Below, one piece after another: positions 13,698-51,755 of a DNA stretch of 64,000 bases (within the stretch, counting starts at the first letter, position 1; each line of letters opens with the position of its first letter). The position numbers were made by a program, and so were the translations under genes. Below the pieces are notes generated by a model. The model had not been told where the DNA came from. It saw only the letters and a list, made by a program, of their open reading frames with translations, and did no database searches. This stretch comes from the human T2T-CHM13v2.0 reference genome, Homo sapiens: positions 14,304,001 to 14,368,000 of the forward strand of contig CP086569.2 of assembly GCA_009914755.4 (NCBI GenBank), given 5' to 3'.

Positions 13698-13818
13698 CTT
13701 TAAACTAGACTTGTAGTCTGTGTTCACTTTGAACATGAGCCCAAGTCGTAAATGAATTTCCTTGGCTCGACAAAAGCTGGGGTCAACATAAAGGACATCT
13801 TGAAATGCTTTAATTGCC
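13698..13818 (-). CDS. UTY: Third consecutive coding exon: (W)[40 protein letters not shown]. 121 nt.
   Basis: Minus strand reads ttttatttttttcag|GGCAATTAAAGCATTTCAAG...GTCTAGTTTAAAG|gtaggtgg. The leading G completes the Trp codon split from exon 17440-17498. The donor is GTAGGT. There are 40 uninterrupted codons matching the KDM6A/UTY TPR region. Asp in 'FQDV' and Lys in 'DYKSS' differ from KDM6A (E and E). Confidence 0.85.
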
Positions 13819-14204
13819 CTGAAAAAAATAAAAACATAAGAAACTGTGATTTTTAATACTTACATATATCTCACTTGATAGTATAGGAAACATTCTGGTT
13901 ATTTAATTTTATTGAAAGTACCAACTTTATAAAAAACAGTATGAATGAACGGAAAAGATTAGAAAGGGATAAGAAAGTGCATAATCCTTTTGTTCTCAAT
14001 TCCGTCAACTATTCAAAAATATCTAAAGGTTCAAGAAAAAATTCAGTGGAAATTACTACAAATCTTTCTGAAACATTCAAGGAAGAACAGCAGGAAAATG
14101 TGAAAAGGTGAGAAAGTGAAGGTGTTAATTCTGCTTCTACTCAGCTTCATATAAGCCAACTTTTTAAAACTTTATTTCTGCCTTTCACTTTTGGTATACT
14201 CTTT

Positions 14205-14485
14205 TGTTGTAAATGACAAGGTCTCAATCTGTCACCCATGCTGGAGTGTAGCAGGACAATCACAGCTCACTGCAGCCTGGACCTCCTGGGTTCAAGCAAT
14301 CCTCTTACTTCAGCCTTCTGAGTAGCTGGAACCACAGGTTCATGCCAATACTCCTAGCTAATTTTTTTCATTTTTTGTACAGAGAGGATCTCTCTTTGAT
14401 GTCCTGGATGGTCATGAACTTCTGGGCTCAACGGATCCTCCTGCACCAGCCTCCCAAAGAGCTGAAATTACAGGCAAACACCTGG
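14205..14485 (-). mobile_element. Alu (older, J-like), minus orientation.
   Basis: gtctcaatctgtcacccatgctggagtgtagcaggacaatcacagctcactgcagcc...cctcccaaagagctgaaattacaggcaaacacctggcc. Confidence 0.9.
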
Positions 14486-15559
14486 CCTGTTTGCCATTAT
14501 CTACTACCATTCTAAGTATGTGTAATAACATGGATAGGGGATCAATTTTTATTTTTTCCACATAGATTTCCTATAGTCTAGCATAATTTGTGGAGCAGAC
14601 TATTATAATTCCAGAGCAATATGGTGTTACCTTTGATATAAATCAAGTACTCATGTTCATGTGGGACTGTTTCTGGGTTCTCCAATCTAATTCAGTGTTG
14701 ATTAGTCTATCAATCCACCTTTGTTCAAATGCTATCATACTGTCTTAATTACTGTTTCTTTTTTAAATGGGTCTCTCCAATAAAGAAAATCCACAGATAA
14801 GTAGAGGTTTTCTTTTTAACAGTGAGTGTATTTTGAATATTTTTACTGCTTGAATTATGTAAATGATAATTTCCTCAAAAATAAATACGAGGGCAAAAGT
14901 CTGCTTGAATCTAAATTATTCTCCAAATACTTTGAAAGTAACAATTTAGAATCTTAAGTGTTTCTAATACAAATGACATTTTCTATACAGTATAAAAAGA
15001 TACAGATACCAGTAATATGACAAAATGGGATATAGGATGCTACACATGCCCCTAATAGGTTAGTCTGATAAGTAATTTCCTACTTCTAAAATTATGTATA
15101 TTCCATATCCATTAATTCCAAGATTAAGCATTTTAAAAGGTAGGGGGTTTGGGGAATTATACAGACATCACTTAAAGACAACACATTATTTAATATATAT
15201 TAAAGCAATCACTATTTTGTATCTATGCTAGCTTTATCTGTGTAGTGATTTTACGTTCTTATCTTCAATCTATGGGAGAACATGAGTTATCACAATTATA
15301 TGAAAATTAATCAACATGATGCACACTAATCACATGATGCACATGTAAATCAACATGATGCACACAGTTTATTCCCCTAAACTGTATAGGAATACAGTTT
15401 CCTTGTCACTAGTTTTACACTGGATTTCACCTAAGTAAATTCTGGCTGACTAAAATGATTTTATCTATATGCCCAGAGAAATAATTATAAATACTGATTA
15501 AAATAACCATCTTTACATGGGGCAAAGCATAATAAATTATTCTACTAACTACAACTTAT

Positions 15560-16860
15560 ATCCTTACTTTTGAATACATGCCCCCTAAATTCTTTACCAG
15601 TGTTATCACTGCCTTGGGCAGACAGGGGCAGGTCCCCAGTGAAACCTGACATTCAAGCCAAAGAAAGCCTGAAGCCTGAAAACTGGGCTGCCAGTTACAG
15701 GTAGAGTCTGTGACCCAGAGTGAGAACTTCCTTGACAACTTTTAGCCAGCCAAAAGGTGCTTTTTCCAGGCCCACCTTGGACCAATCAGCATGCACTCAC
15801 CCATTCTGAGCCCACACAAACCCCAGACTCAGCCATACTTTAGCACTATCCACCTTTGGGTAGGGGCTACCCACTTCAGGTCCCCTCTCAGCTGAGAGCT
15901 GTTCTGTTCCTCAGTAAAACTTTTCTGCCTTGCTCACCCTCTAGTTGTCCATGTTAGCTCATTCTTCTTGGACCTAGAACAAGAACCCAGTACCCACCAA
16001 AGGGCAGGGCATAAAGTGACTGCAACACTGTAGCCCTCCTGCCCTCTATCCACACCGGGTGGCTGCCCCATGTGACAGGAAGCAGCAGGGTGCCAGGCCA
16101 GCCCAGGAGCCGTCGGCTTAAGCCAGGTAATGGGACTGAACCAACTGGGAGGCACACAACCCCGTTCGCTGGAAGTGTGTGGACTTGGTGAGGGAGCGGT
16201 AATACCAATGAGGGAGTGGTAATACGAATGTGCTGTAACACTTCGTGGGGGCTCAGACACCAGGACTCCCCAAGCCAGAGCTGTAACAAACTGTAACACC
16301 CCCTTTGGGGCTTTGTGGTTTCTGGCATCTCCAAATATTTTCAGCGCCACAGCGTTCCCGTAGTCCAGTTGCCAGCACCCAAGGCGGAAGCCGCTGAAGG
16401 CACCGTTGGTCCAGCCACAGACTTGCGCAGAGCTCACCCATGTGCCAGCACCTGGAGTTGCCCAACCTGCCGGCACACCTGACTGTATGCCATGGCCAGA
16501 CCCCATGCCCACTGGCTCACATAGGTCTTGCCACTCTGCACCTGGCTCCCCACTGGCGGGTGTGAAATCTGAGCGGGTACCATGAGCCAAGCACAGCCTG
16601 CAGGGCCAACTGGGCAGAGCCAGTCCAGCCATCAGGAACCAAACTTGAGCAGAGGCCCTGCCAGACAAACAGGTCTTGTGAAGCGGCACCCAAAGGATCC
16701 TTTGTCAGTACCCTTCCCAATGATAACAGAAAGTTTTTCTGTTCCAATGCAAAGTTTTTCTGCCTTTCGATTCCAATGCCAAAATATGCAGAAAATATGC
16801 ATTTTTTGGTTTCAGTAGGAATTTTGTTTAAATTATTAGACTGGGGACCCAGACATCAGG
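15560..16860. repeat. GC-rich, CpG-containing LTR/ERV-like segment (probable solo LTR of unassigned family).
   Basis: An abrupt composition shift from AT-rich surroundings. It contains repeated 'agctgtaaca(c/a)' motifs and 'ggtaatac(c/g)aatg' direct repeats. The 251-aa minus ORF at 15934-16689 is P/G/S/W-rich low complexity. Confidence 0.4.
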
Positions 16861-49659: not shown

Positions 49660-49960
49660 TTTTAAATTATTGCACTTTAAGTTCTGGGATACATGTGCAG
49701 AAGGTGCAGGTCTCTTACACAGGTATACATGTGCCATGGTGGATTGCTGCACCCATCAACCCATCATCTACATTAGGTATTTCTCCTAATGGTATCCTTC
49801 ACCTACCCAACCCCTGCCAATTCCCTGACAGACCCCAGTATGTGATGTTCCCCTCCCTGTGTCCATTTGTTCTCGTTGTTCAACTACCATTTATGAGTGA
49901 GAACATGTGGTGTTTGGTTTTCTCTTCTTGTGTTAGCTTGCCGAGAATGATGAAAACCTT
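49660..49960 (-). mobile_element. L1PA 3' end fragment (~300 bp), minus orientation. A T-rich tail lies at 49650-49670.
   Basis: tttaagttctgggatacatgtgcagaaggtgcaggtctcttacacaggtatacatgtgccatggtggattgctgcacccatcaacccatcatctacattaggtatttctcctaatg... is the reverse complement of the L1 3' UTR. ORF 49695-50009 is its antisense reading. Confidence 0.9.
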
Positions 49961-50619
49961 TAACATTTATGGTAAGTCTGAGGAACTGTCAGAGCCAAAA
50001 GGAGCCTAAAAGAAAGACATGAGAAGTAATAATGCTATATTCAGGATGGGATCCAAAACAAAAAAAAATTAGGTAAAAACTCCAGAAATCTGAATAAAGA
50101 ATGAACTTTACTTAATGCTAATTCATCAATATTGCATAATAAACTTTAACAACACATGTACCAGATTAATATAAGATGTTATCAATAGGGGATTATGTAT
50201 AGACACACTGTGGTATCTTTGAAATAATCTTGCAAAGCTAGAACTGTCAATAAAAAATAAAGTTTACTTTGAAAAAATGAAGATAATGATTAAAAGTGAT
50301 GAAAAACATCGACTAATATGTCTTAAAAAGCTTGGTTAAATTCTGAGCAGAAAAAGTACAAGGAGATCAGAAAATGGTGGAATAGAAAGTCCTCTGTTCA
50401 CATACCCCATAGCAGCAATAACTTGGCAATGATTCACAAGCGAAAGTGGCTTTGTGGGAGCTTTGAATTACAGGTAGAAGACAGCAAAACTCTGAGACTA
50501 AGAACTGTTTTGCAAAAGCAGGCCCGTGCCCAGGTGGCAGTTTTGCCAACAAGGTCCCCAGCTATAGTCCTATCACCCTGTAGCCTCAGTCATAACAACA
50601 CTGAATAGCAACGATCCAG

Positions 50620-51140
50620 ACACTATACCAAGGGACACAGATGCCACACCATGCCTTGGGTAATGTACTGTAGTTTTATTTTCTTTTATTATATACCTAC
50701 AAGTGGAATTGTTTGACAAGATAGTAACTTTGTGAAAAGCTGCTAGGTTGTTTTCTAGAGTGGTTGCATCATTTTACATTCCCATGTCAACATTTAAAGA
50801 TCTGTTTCTCTATATCCTAGCCAACACTTGCTGTCTTTTAAAAAATTTTTATAATCCTAGAAAATATGAAGTGGTCTGCAGTTTCGATTCTCATTGTATT
50901 CATGACTAATGTTTGAACAGCTTTTTGTTTATTGGCCATTTGTAAATGTTTATTTTTGAACAAATGTCTATTCTGATTATTTTTCTTCTGTTATTTCTTG
51001 AGTTGCAAGAGTTTTAAAATATATATGTCTGGTTATTTGATCCTTACATGATTTGCAGATGTTTTCTTATTCTTTTGAGTTGTCTTTTCAGTTTTGATAG
51101 CATTCTTTGAAGCACCATAGATTTAAGTTTTGATGGATTC
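50620..51140 (-). mobile_element. L1 ORF2 internal fragment, minus orientation.
   Basis: Typical L1 antisense text (..gtggttgcatcattttacattcccatgtcaacatttaaagatctg...ggccatttgtaaatgtttatttttgaacaaatgtctattc..). Confidence 0.8.
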
Positions 51141-51705
51141 CATCAAAATTCGTCCAGAATACACAAATATATAGAAACAGAAATGAAATTAATGACTGCT
51201 TAGTGCCACGTTAATGGAGGGAAACAGAAGGGTACAGTGTTTTATTTTAATATCATGAAAATGTTTCAAAATTAATTGTGATGGTTGGACAACTCTATGA
51301 ATACATTAACAATTACTGAATTGTACACTTTAAATGAGTGAATTCTAAGCTATATATGTATTATACGTCCATAATGTTTTACCAAAAAATAATAAATCAA
51401 AATAAATGCTTATCAATATATGTTTTGGAACTAAGTAGATTTCATTTTTAATTACATTTCTTTCCCACTCAAGTAATTCATGAAAGCCAGAAATAATTTT
51501 ATTTATATTAGGAATCAACACATGGCCTTTCAAAGTCTGTGACTAAAACAGGACTTTCCCTTTATCCACATTGTACTATCTATGGCTAATCCTCATAGCA
51601 GTTACAACTAACAGTAGTATCATACATCCTATGACAAGATAAATGTATTTTGAGTATGATCTGCCATAAAGGAAATAAAAACTGGCATTGAAAATTTGTA
51701 CCAAC

Positions 51706-51755
51706 CTTCCAGTAGTCAGCCTGTAAACTGTAATATCTCTGATATGCAGATAATG
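51706..51755 (-). CDS. UTY: Coding exon of KDM6A/UTY-family lysine demethylase (TPR region): (G)CA..AAG encodes ALSAYQRYYSLQADYWK. Phase-1 start, 50 nt.
   Basis: Minus strand reads ttttttcttttccag|CATTATCTGCATATCAGAGATATTACAGTTTACAGGCTGACTACTGGAAG|gttggtac. Acceptor AG is at 51757-51756 after a polypyrimidine tract, and donor GT is at 51705-51704. The peptide matches the KDM6A/UTY N-terminal TPR segment. Ala in place of Ser in 'SLQADYWK' matches UTY rather than KDM6A, from memory of the two protein sequences. Confidence 0.8.

What the first reader, a model, noticed from the sequence alone, without database searches (positions are those of the whole stretch)
13698..51755. Three consecutive TPR-region coding exons of a KDM6A/UTY-family gene on the minus strand; residues favour the Y-linked paralog UTY
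The exons at 51706-51755, 17440-17498 and 13698-13818 have canonical splice sites. They translate in one continuous frame to [77 protein letters not shown]. This is the N-terminal TPR segment of the UTX/UTY histone H3K27 demethylase family. At the four positions where my recollection of KDM6A reads S, HY..Q, E and E, this sequence has A, YY..H, D and K, which matches what I recall for UTY. The extreme repeat density and the intact HERV in the intron are also typical of Y-chromosome ampliconic/X-degenerate sequence. Neither the next exon (HFQLALIDCNPC...) nor the preceding one (...FCQLGHFNLLLEDY) is present in the window, so their introns are at least 13.7 kb and 12 kb long.
Basis: partly seen in the sequence, partly recalled or inferred. 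Interest (0 to 1): 0.55.

Follow-up and report, generated by a model that had tools for sequence, protein, structure and literature searches.

The report
Three TPR exons of human UTY

Summary
The three minus-strand exons are at the stated coordinates (51755..51706, 17498..17440, 13818..13698). Each has an AG acceptor behind a polypyrimidine tract and a GT donor. They splice in one frame to the stated 77-residue peptide.

That peptide is 100% identical to residues 109-185 of deposited human UTY cDNA products and of orangutan UTY. It differs at 5 residues from primate and bat KDM6A-type proteins and from bird, reptile, fish and shark homologues.

Two rare alternative exons tie the window to this locus:
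- The 25-aa insert of human UTY transcript variant 191 is encoded at 28181..28107, inside the 34.2 kb intron, with AG/GT sites.
- An antisense-Alu exon at 53509..53388 matches a UTY-like isoform 41/41.

A proboscis-monkey contig is colinear with the window at 8.0% substitution divergence, and its exons differ only by synonymous changes.

Two side claims fail. The HERV (37870-46327) is a degraded provirus, not intact. Repeat content is not shown to be extreme, and in any case does not diagnose Y linkage.

Verdict: known gene, most likely human. Low interest.

The parts
51706..51755 (-). UTY coding exon, 50 nt. Encodes positions 2-3 of the A109 codon through K125 (ALSAYQRYYSLQADYWK), the end of the TPR preceding the Pfam-detected one.
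   Evidence: AG acceptor and GTTGGT donor. Identical to human UTY cDNA products P0057 and P0059.
17440..17498 (-). UTY coding exon, 59 nt. Encodes N126 through the first two bases of W145 ([20 protein letters not shown]), the first part of a TPR.
   Evidence: AG acceptor and GTAAGT donor. Pfam TPR_1 matches peptide residues 19-52. One synonymous difference from Nasalis.
13698..13818 (-). UTY coding exon, 121 nt. Encodes the last base of W145 through K185 ([40 protein letters not shown]).
   Evidence: AG acceptor and GTAGGT donor. One synonymous difference from Nasalis; 12/120 nt differences from a KDM6A-type exon, L002.
28107..28181 (-). Rare alternative cassette exon, 75 nt and in frame, encoding FKVFTRILSPVSVVHNLLSVPSSLQ, inside the 34.2 kb intron.
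   Evidence: 25/25 aa identical to the insert in human UTY transcript variant 191 (ABS19026.1, P0062), which sits exactly between the first two exons. Flanked by tttgtAG|...|GTgggt. 10/75 nt differ in Nasalis, which is about neutral.
53388..53509 (-). Antisense-Alu-derived alternative exon, 122 nt, upstream of the first constitutive exon.
   Evidence: 41/41 aa identical to residues 18-58 of P0068 (UniParc UPI00063D797B), which then continues ALSAYQ... with a UTY-type sequence. Other Alus in the window give at most 67.5%. Poly-T + CAG acceptor and a GC donor.
17499..51705 (-). Intron of 34,207 nt. Contains the cassette exon, the ERV provirus, L1 fragments and Alus.
   Evidence: Coordinates; contents.
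13819..17439 (-). Intron of 3,621 nt.
   Evidence: Colinear with Nasalis.
37870..46327 (+). Degraded class I (gamma-like) endogenous retrovirus provirus, antisense to UTY. LTRs at 37870-38378 and 45825-46327.
   Evidence: LTR pair 88.8% identical. Polypurine tract before the 3' LTR. Pfam Gag_MA, Gag_p30, RNase_H and rve hits on + frames. One frame has 157 stops; the longest open frame is 159 aa.
60799..61593 (-). L1 ORF2 3' fragment.
   Evidence: Matches human LINE-1 ORF2p residues 1014-1224, E = 7.4e-131 (PDB 8sxt).
20628..21316 (-). L1 ORF2 3'-end fragment, absent from the Nasalis orthologous sequence.
   Evidence: Gap in the colinear alignment. 94% identical over 300 nt to the L1 at 60850-61149. 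Translation carries the same ORF2p C-terminal sequence.

Best explanation
The window is a 64 kb internal segment of the Y-linked gene UTY (KDM6C), most likely from Homo sapiens, transcribed from the minus strand.

It carries three constitutive coding exons for UTY residues 109-185: the end of one TPR, a complete TPR (residues 127-160) and the start of the next. They are separated by introns of 34.2 kb and 3.6 kb. The introns are filled with Alu elements, L1 fragments and one degraded ERV provirus. They also contain at least two rarely used alternative exons.

Inferred function: in the mature protein this TPR module is part of the N-terminal protein-interaction domain that docks UTX/UTY into the MLL3/MLL4 (KMT2C/D) H3K4-methyltransferase complexes. 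The weakly active JmjC demethylase domain is encoded far downstream, outside the window.

Shown here: exon structure, reading frame, identity to UTY products, the paralog-specific substitutions, purifying selection on the exons, and the transposon content.
Inferred from the literature: the role of the TPR region, and Y linkage itself.
For: - Splice sites and frame.
- Family: the best hits are named UTY-like or KDM6A. TPR_1 matches at E = 4.6e-6.
- Paralog: the 77 aa occur exactly in P0057, P0059, P0060, P0061 and P0066 (human), P0068 (unnamed UniParc entry) and P0177 (Pongo). nr names P0057, P0059 and P0066 '...Y-linked transcript variant 260/238/113' and names P0177 'histone demethylase UTY [Pongo abelii]'. 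P0177 is recorded on a 67.8 Mb contig, which matches the 68 Mb Sumatran orangutan Y (PMC10705393).
- KDM6A-type sequences differ at 5 positions, and every non-mammalian homologue has the KDM6A state. The window therefore carries the derived paralog.
- The derived states are layered. H>Y is seen in all six non-primate mammalian sequences of the derived (UTY-type) lineage in the alignment (vole, mole-rat, beaver, camel, sloth and the unnamed MetaClust-independent set shown: Microtus, Fukomys, Castor, Camelus, Choloepus). Q>H and E>D are seen in rodents and primates. S>A and E>K are seen only in primates.
- Locus-specific evidence: the variant-191 cassette exon lies in the correct intron with AG/GT sites, and the Alu exon of P0068 lies upstream.
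- Orthology and constraint: a Nasalis contig is colinear over 28 kb. Substitution p-distance is 8.0% over 25.4 kb, mostly intron, while exons 2 and 3 each show a single synonymous change.
- A KDM6A-type exon contig (L002) aligns to the window at only about 69% in the introns, as expected of an old paralog.
- Function: UTY has the same TPR + JmjC architecture as KDM6A, belongs to MLL3/4 complexes and has reduced demethylase activity (PMC4140284). The UTX TPR region is a main determinant of MLL3/4, PR-DUB and MiDAC binding (PMC10296593).
Against: - No human X or Y genomic reference could be searched, so chromosomal location rests on database names and cDNA identity.
- The 77 aa are also identical in orangutan, so the constitutive exons alone do not fix the species.
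- The Pfam TPR_1 score (26.7 bits) is just under the curated cut-off of 27.8 for this short fragment.
- The 8.0% divergence from Nasalis is only loosely informative about Y versus X, because the window's species is inferred rather than known.
- The probe for the second protein search was typed from my memory of UTY. The sequences it returned are real database entries and are what the argument uses.
Confidence: 0.93

Rival explanations
1. The exons belong to the X-linked paralog KDM6A (UTX).
For: Same family and the same exon phases. 72 of 77 residues are shared with KDM6A-type proteins.
Against: - All five discriminating residues are in the UTY state, and none of the KDM6A-type sequences retrieved has them.
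- The UTY variant-191 cassette exon is in the intron.
- A KDM6A-type exon contig (L002) shares only about 69% intron identity and 90% exon identity with the window.
Confidence: 0.01
2. It is UTY, but from a non-human hominid (chimpanzee, gorilla or orangutan) rather than human.
For: The 77-aa peptide is identical in Pongo abelii UTY. No genomic reference was available to settle the species.
Against: - 25/25 aa of a non-conserved intronic cassette exon match a human cDNA.
- 41/41 aa of an Alu exon match P0068, whose remainder matches human UTY isoforms.
- At the reported 2.68% human-chimpanzee Y divergence (PMC10705393), about 5 substitutions would be expected in these 197 nt.
- In Nasalis the cassette has 10/75 nt differences.
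Confidence: 0.05
3. It is a duplicated or decaying, non-functional genomic copy of UTY rather than the expressed gene.
For: Y chromosomes carry many pseudogenes, and only three exons are visible here.
Against: - All six splice sites are canonical and the frame is open.
- dN = 0, with one synonymous change per exon, against 8% intron divergence from Nasalis.
- Introns are present, so it is not a processed copy.
- cDNAs use exons found in this very intron.
Confidence: 0.01

Closest known systems
Human UTY (KDM6C), the Y-linked ubiquitously transcribed TPR gene
   Same: 100% identity over residues 109-185 to deposited human UTY cDNA products. The window also contains the cassette exon of transcript variant 191. 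Exon phases and splice sites are intact.
   Different: Nothing detected. Only 3 of roughly 30 exons are in the window, and chromosomal placement was not testable.
KDM6A (UTX), the X-linked gametolog
   Same: Same TPR region with an equivalent exon structure. 72/77 residues are identical. The function is presumably the same: docking into MLL3/4 complexes (PMC10296593).
   Different: Five substitutions: S>A, H>Y, Q>H, E>D, E>K. Intron sequence is only about 69% alignable to a KDM6A-type contig. KDM6A keeps the ancestral vertebrate residues.
UTY of the Old World monkey Nasalis larvatus (contig JBLOOW010000028.1)
   Same: Colinear orthologous locus. Protein is identical over exons 2-3, with the same splice sites.
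   Different: 8.0% substitution divergence. It lacks the L1 piece at window 20628-21316 and the segment at 9402-11062. The cassette exon sequence is diverged.

Membership tests
KDM6A/UTY subfamily (TPR-containing KDM6 demethylases) | N-terminal TPR-region sequence homologous to UTX/UTY | tested here: met
   E = 3.6e-41 to a KDM6A/UTY-type protein. The peptide is 100% contained in human UTY products.
KDM6A/UTY subfamily (TPR-containing KDM6 demethylases) | Recognisable TPR motif by profile | tested here: inconclusive
   Pfam TPR_1 gives E = 4.6e-6, but 26.7 bits is below the 27.8-bit cut-off on the 77-aa fragment. Full-length relatives carry many precomputed TPR hits.
KDM6A/UTY subfamily (TPR-containing KDM6 demethylases) | C-terminal JmjC catalytic domain and zinc-binding domain | not testable with these tools
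   These are encoded by exons outside the 64 kb window. No JmjC-like sequence was found by tblastn with UTY isoforms.
UTY (the Y-linked paralog specifically) | Paralog-diagnostic residues match UTY rather than KDM6A | tested here: met
   A, Y, H, D, K in the window, human UTY and Pongo UTY. S, H, Q, E, E in primate and bat KDM6A-type proteins and in all non-mammals.
UTY (the Y-linked paralog specifically) | Locus-specific transcribed intronic sequence from UTY cDNAs is present | tested here: met
   Variant-191 cassette exon at 28181..28107, 25/25 aa, AG/GT. Alu exon of P0068 at 53509..53388, 41/41 aa.
UTY (the Y-linked paralog specifically) | Physical location on the male-specific Y (X-degenerate region) and male-limited presence | not testable with these tools
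   No human or ape genome collection is searchable here. Only indirect evidence exists: source names, and the Pongo UTY protein recorded on a 67.8 Mb contig, which equals the orangutan Y size.
UTY (the Y-linked paralog specifically) | Neutral divergence elevated relative to the X (male mutation bias) | tested here: inconclusive
   8.0% p-distance to Nasalis over 25.4 kb. This fits a Y-like rate only if the window is hominoid, and no X-linked comparison could be made.
Intact (coding-competent) HERV provirus | Paired LTRs flanking gag-pol-env | tested here: met
   LTRs at 37870-38378 and 45825-46327, 88.8% identical. Gag_MA, Gag_p30, RNase_H and rve remnants in order on the + strand. No env family was detected.
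Intact (coding-competent) HERV provirus | Long open gag, pol and env reading frames | tested here: not met
   157 stops in one frame. The longest open stretch is 159 aa. The protease and most of the RT region are not recognisable.

The most novel reading that the evidence does not exclude
The only mildly novel reading left open concerns the two rare intronic exons: the 75-nt cassette at 28107-28181 and the Alu exon with a GC donor at 53388-53509. If they were regulated, human-lineage-specific insertions into the TPR domain, they could modulate UTY's docking into MLL3/4 complexes instead of being splicing noise. Both already exist in public protein records. The cassette evolves neutrally relative to Nasalis.
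Probability: 0.03. Interest if true: 0.25.

Novelty: already known. Interest (0 to 1): 0.04.

Why it matters
It matters only as a correct annotation. The window can be labelled as UTY residues 109-185 (probably exons 4-6 by analogy with KDM6A numbering; this is from memory and was not tested) plus introns.

UTY is biologically important. It is a male-specific KDM6 paralog, a source of H-Y minor histocompatibility antigens, and a partial back-up for UTX tumour-suppressor and developmental functions. None of that is new information from this window.

The check does show that five residues in 77 are enough to separate the X and Y gametologs. It also shows that their derived states are layered across mammals.

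Tried and rejected
- PDB sequence search with the peptide returned only designed or generic TPR proteins. No UTX/UTY TPR structure appears by sequence.
- Full-text search for six peptide strings found no paper.
- The metagenome scan with the exon-3 read-through peptide returned 14 loci. None was identical to the window, and the best (L004, L005) share only the exon. It gave no help on species or X/Y.
- Rfam at gathering thresholds found nothing in the window.
- Pfam on L1-like and miscellaneous open frames gave nothing. L1 identity was obtained instead from PDB ORF2p sequences.
- The idea that the ERV sits inside an older L1 is only half supported. The downstream flank matches ORF2p residues 383-428; the upstream flank has no hit.
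- Look-up of the Pongo UTY protein's contig failed; it is not on record.
- The 256-aa open frame at 15937-16704 was considered as a possible nested gene and rejected. It has no Pfam hit, CpG o/e of 0.30, and is broken by stops and a 30-nt gap in Nasalis.
- ERV family and PBS type could not be assigned, and no clear target-site duplication was seen.
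Full report
**Observation.**
Reading the minus strand at the stated coordinates shows three short exons with canonical boundaries.
- 51755..51706: 50 nt, ...ttcttttccAG|CATTATCT...TGGAAG|GTtggt.
- 17498..17440: 59 nt, ...tatattaacAG|AATGCT...CATTG|GTaagt.
- 13818..13698: 121 nt...tttttttcAG|GGCAATT...TTAAAG|GTaggt.

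Concatenated and read from the second base, with the first codon completed by a G from the upstream exon, they give one open frame. It reads [77 protein letters not shown]. The other two frames contain stops. The introns between the exons are 34,207 nt and 3,621 nt.

**Family.**
The peptide hits proteins that their sources name 'histone demethylase UTY-like' or 'lysine-specific demethylase 6A' at E down to 3.6e-41 in a 5.8-billion-sequence database. Pfam places a TPR at peptide residues 19-52 with E = 4.6e-6. That is 26.7 bits, a little under the 27.8-bit cut-off for so short a fragment. The PDB contains no UTX/UTY TPR sequence; only designed TPR proteins match.

**Paralog.**
The first search returned only short fragments. 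The probe only retrieves; the argument rests on the real entries it returned.

Exact cluster look-up shows that P0057, P0059, P0062 and P0066 are human cDNA products. NCBI nr calls them 'ubiquitously transcribed tetratricopeptide repeat protein Y-linked transcript variant 260/238/191/113'. The same 90% cluster as P0057 contains 'histone demethylase UTY isoform X26 [Pongo abelii]', recorded on a 67.8 Mb contig. The Sumatran orangutan Y is 68 Mb (PMC10705393).

The window's 77 residues occur exactly, at positions 109-185, in P0057, P0059, P0060, P0061, P0066 and the Pongo protein. The KDM6A-type proteins differ at five positions. These are Rhinopithecus P0100, the bat P0147, the gerbil P0004, and all bird, gecko, teleost and shark homologues. 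They have S, H, Q, E and E where the window has A, Y, H, D and K.

The window therefore carries the derived paralog, and KDM6A retains the ancestral vertebrate state. The derived states are layered.
- H>Y is present in camel, sloth, rodent and primate UTY-type sequences.
- Q>H and E>D are present in rodents and primates.
- S>A and E>K are present only in primates.

This pattern is what is expected of a Y gametolog that has accumulated substitutions since recombination with the X stopped.

**Locus-specific evidence.**
Human UTY variant 191 (P0062) carries a 25-residue insert, FKVFTRILSPVSVVHNLLSVPSSLQ, precisely between the first and second exons. tblastn finds it at 28181..28107 on the minus strand with 25/25 identity, inside the 34.2 kb intron. 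It is flanked by tttgtAG and GTgggt. In the proboscis monkey the same 75 nt differ at 10 positions. It is therefore unconstrained intronic sequence, and its perfect match to a human cDNA points to the human locus.

A second isoform is P0068, a UniParc entry whose remainder matches human UTY isoforms. It begins with an Alu-derived segment. Residues 18-58 are 41/41 identical to 53509..53388, whereas other Alus in the window give at most 67.5%. That exon has the classic poly-T + CAG acceptor of antisense Alu exons and a GC donor.

Human-chimpanzee Y divergence is reported as 2.68% (PMC10705393). About five substitutions would then be expected across these 197 nt if the window were chimpanzee. Human origin is the best reading, although no genome reference could be searched.

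**Orthologous sequence and constraint.**
The only hit identical over exons 2-3 in the first search was a Nasalis larvatus protein. Its 88 kb contig was fetched as L001. L001 is colinear with window 28261..1. Over 25.4 kb of ungapped alignment, mostly intron, the substitution p-distance is 8.0% (Jukes-Cantor 8.5%). Exons 2 and 3 differ by one synonymous change each, with no amino-acid change. This is clear purifying selection on the coding exons.

The 8% figure would fit the faster Y clock reported for apes (Y 2.68% against X 0.97% for human-chimpanzee). It is not decisive, because no X-linked comparison could be made. A KDM6A-type exon contig from a sequencing run (L002) aligns to the window at about 69% in the flanking introns and 90% in the exon. 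That fits an old paralog.

**Neighbouring exons.**
tblastn with proteins carrying the preceding exon (...FCQLGHFNLLLEDY.K) and the following exon (HFQLALIDCNPC...) finds neither in the window. In Nasalis the called gene that carries the following exon ends about 2.4 kb beyond the position aligned to window base 1.

**Introns.**
The 'intact HERV' is a provirus on the + strand, antisense to UTY, at 37870-46327.
- Its LTRs are about 510 bp long and 88.8% identical.
- A polypurine tract precedes the 3' LTR.
- Pfam finds Gag_MA, Gag_p30, RNase_H and integrase-core remnants in order.
- One frame alone has 157 stops.
- The longest open stretch is 159 aa.
- No env family and no clear target-site duplication were found.

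It is structurally near full length but coding-dead.

Sixteen Alu intervals cover 6.6% of the window, 12 of them antisense to the gene. Alus indicate a primate.

L1 ORF2p fragments were confirmed against PDB sequences.
- 60799-61593(-) matches residues 1014-1224 at E = 7e-131.
- 30191-30463(+) matches endonuclease residues 67-143.
- 46783-46953(+) matches residues 383-428.

The L1 piece at 20628-21316 is absent from Nasalis.

GC content is 37%. The sense strand of the gene is T-rich: A 22,594 against T 17,742 on the + strand. I could not compute a full repeat fraction. What was measured is unremarkable for AT-rich primate DNA and is not evidence for the Y. From my own knowledge, UTY lies in X-degenerate sequence, not ampliconic sequence.

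**How it works.**
Shown here: the exon structure, frame, paralog identity and constraint.

Inferred from the literature:
- UTY has the same organisation as KDM6A, with N-terminal TPRs and a C-terminal JmjC plus zinc-binding domain.
- It is part of MLL3/MLL4 complexes.
- It retains only weak H3K27 demethylase activity.
- It has many splice isoforms (PMC4140284).
- For UTX, the TPR region together with the middle part recovers all MLL3/4, PR-DUB and MiDAC subunits.
- A cancer mutation, G137V, in the TPR impairs MLL3/4 binding (PMC10296593 and its reference 6).

By my numbering from memory, UTX G137 corresponds to UTY G134 in the YGLGLVY motif of the exon at 17498..17440. The three exons thus encode part of the scaffold by which UTY is recruited into KMT2C/D complexes. 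The catalytic part of the protein is encoded outside the window.

**Verdict.**
The finding is real and correctly interpreted. It is a segment of the known gene UTY, most likely human. The side remarks about an intact HERV and diagnostic repeat density do not hold. Nothing in the window departs from what is already known, so interest is low.

Noticed in passing
window 28107-28181 (-): In-frame 75-nt cassette exon with AG/GT sites, inside the 34.2 kb intron. It is identical to the 25-aa insert of human UTY transcript variant 191 (P0062). It is not conserved in Nasalis (10/75 nt differ), so it is probably splicing noise.
   Followed up: yes
window 53388-53509 (-): Antisense-Alu exon with a poly-T + CAG acceptor and an unusual GC donor. 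It is 41/41 aa identical to the N-terminal part of the UniParc protein P0068, which then continues with a UTY-type sequence.
   Followed up: partly
window 37870-46327 (+): Degraded gamma-like ERV provirus. LTRs are 88.8% identical, with gag MA/p30, RNase H and integrase remnants. No env hit, no open frame above 159 aa and no clear target-site duplication. The gag-region open frame at 39395-39811 contains an (HT)n dipeptide run, i.e. a dinucleotide microsatellite. Family not assigned.
   Followed up: partly
window 20628-21316 and 60850-61149: Two L1 ORF2 3'-end fragments, 94% identical to each other. The first is missing from the orthologous Nasalis sequence, so it is a lineage-specific insertion (or a deletion in Nasalis).
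   Followed up: partly
window 9402-11062: A 1.66 kb stretch with no counterpart in the otherwise colinear Nasalis contig, so an indel between the lineages. Its content was not examined.
   Followed up: no
window 15937-16704 (-): A 256-aa stop-free frame on the gene's strand in a 58% GC patch of the 3.6 kb intron. No Pfam hit, CpG o/e 0.30, and interrupted by stops and a 30-nt gap in Nasalis. It is not a gene.
   Followed up: yes
whole window: Strong strand asymmetry: A 22,594 against T 17,742 on the + strand, so the UTY sense strand is T-rich. 12 of 16 Alu intervals are antisense to the gene. This is consistent with a long transcribed intron containing antisense-biased L1 and Alu elements.
   Followed up: no
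database hits P0001, P0004, P0064, P0087, P0105: Source names are unreliable for X/Y assignment. Bird, fish, insect and mite proteins are labelled 'UTY-like'. A gerbil protein labelled 'UTY-like' has KDM6A-type residues. A Fukomys protein labelled 'KDM6A-like' has the UTY-type YY..H/D signature.
   Followed up: partly
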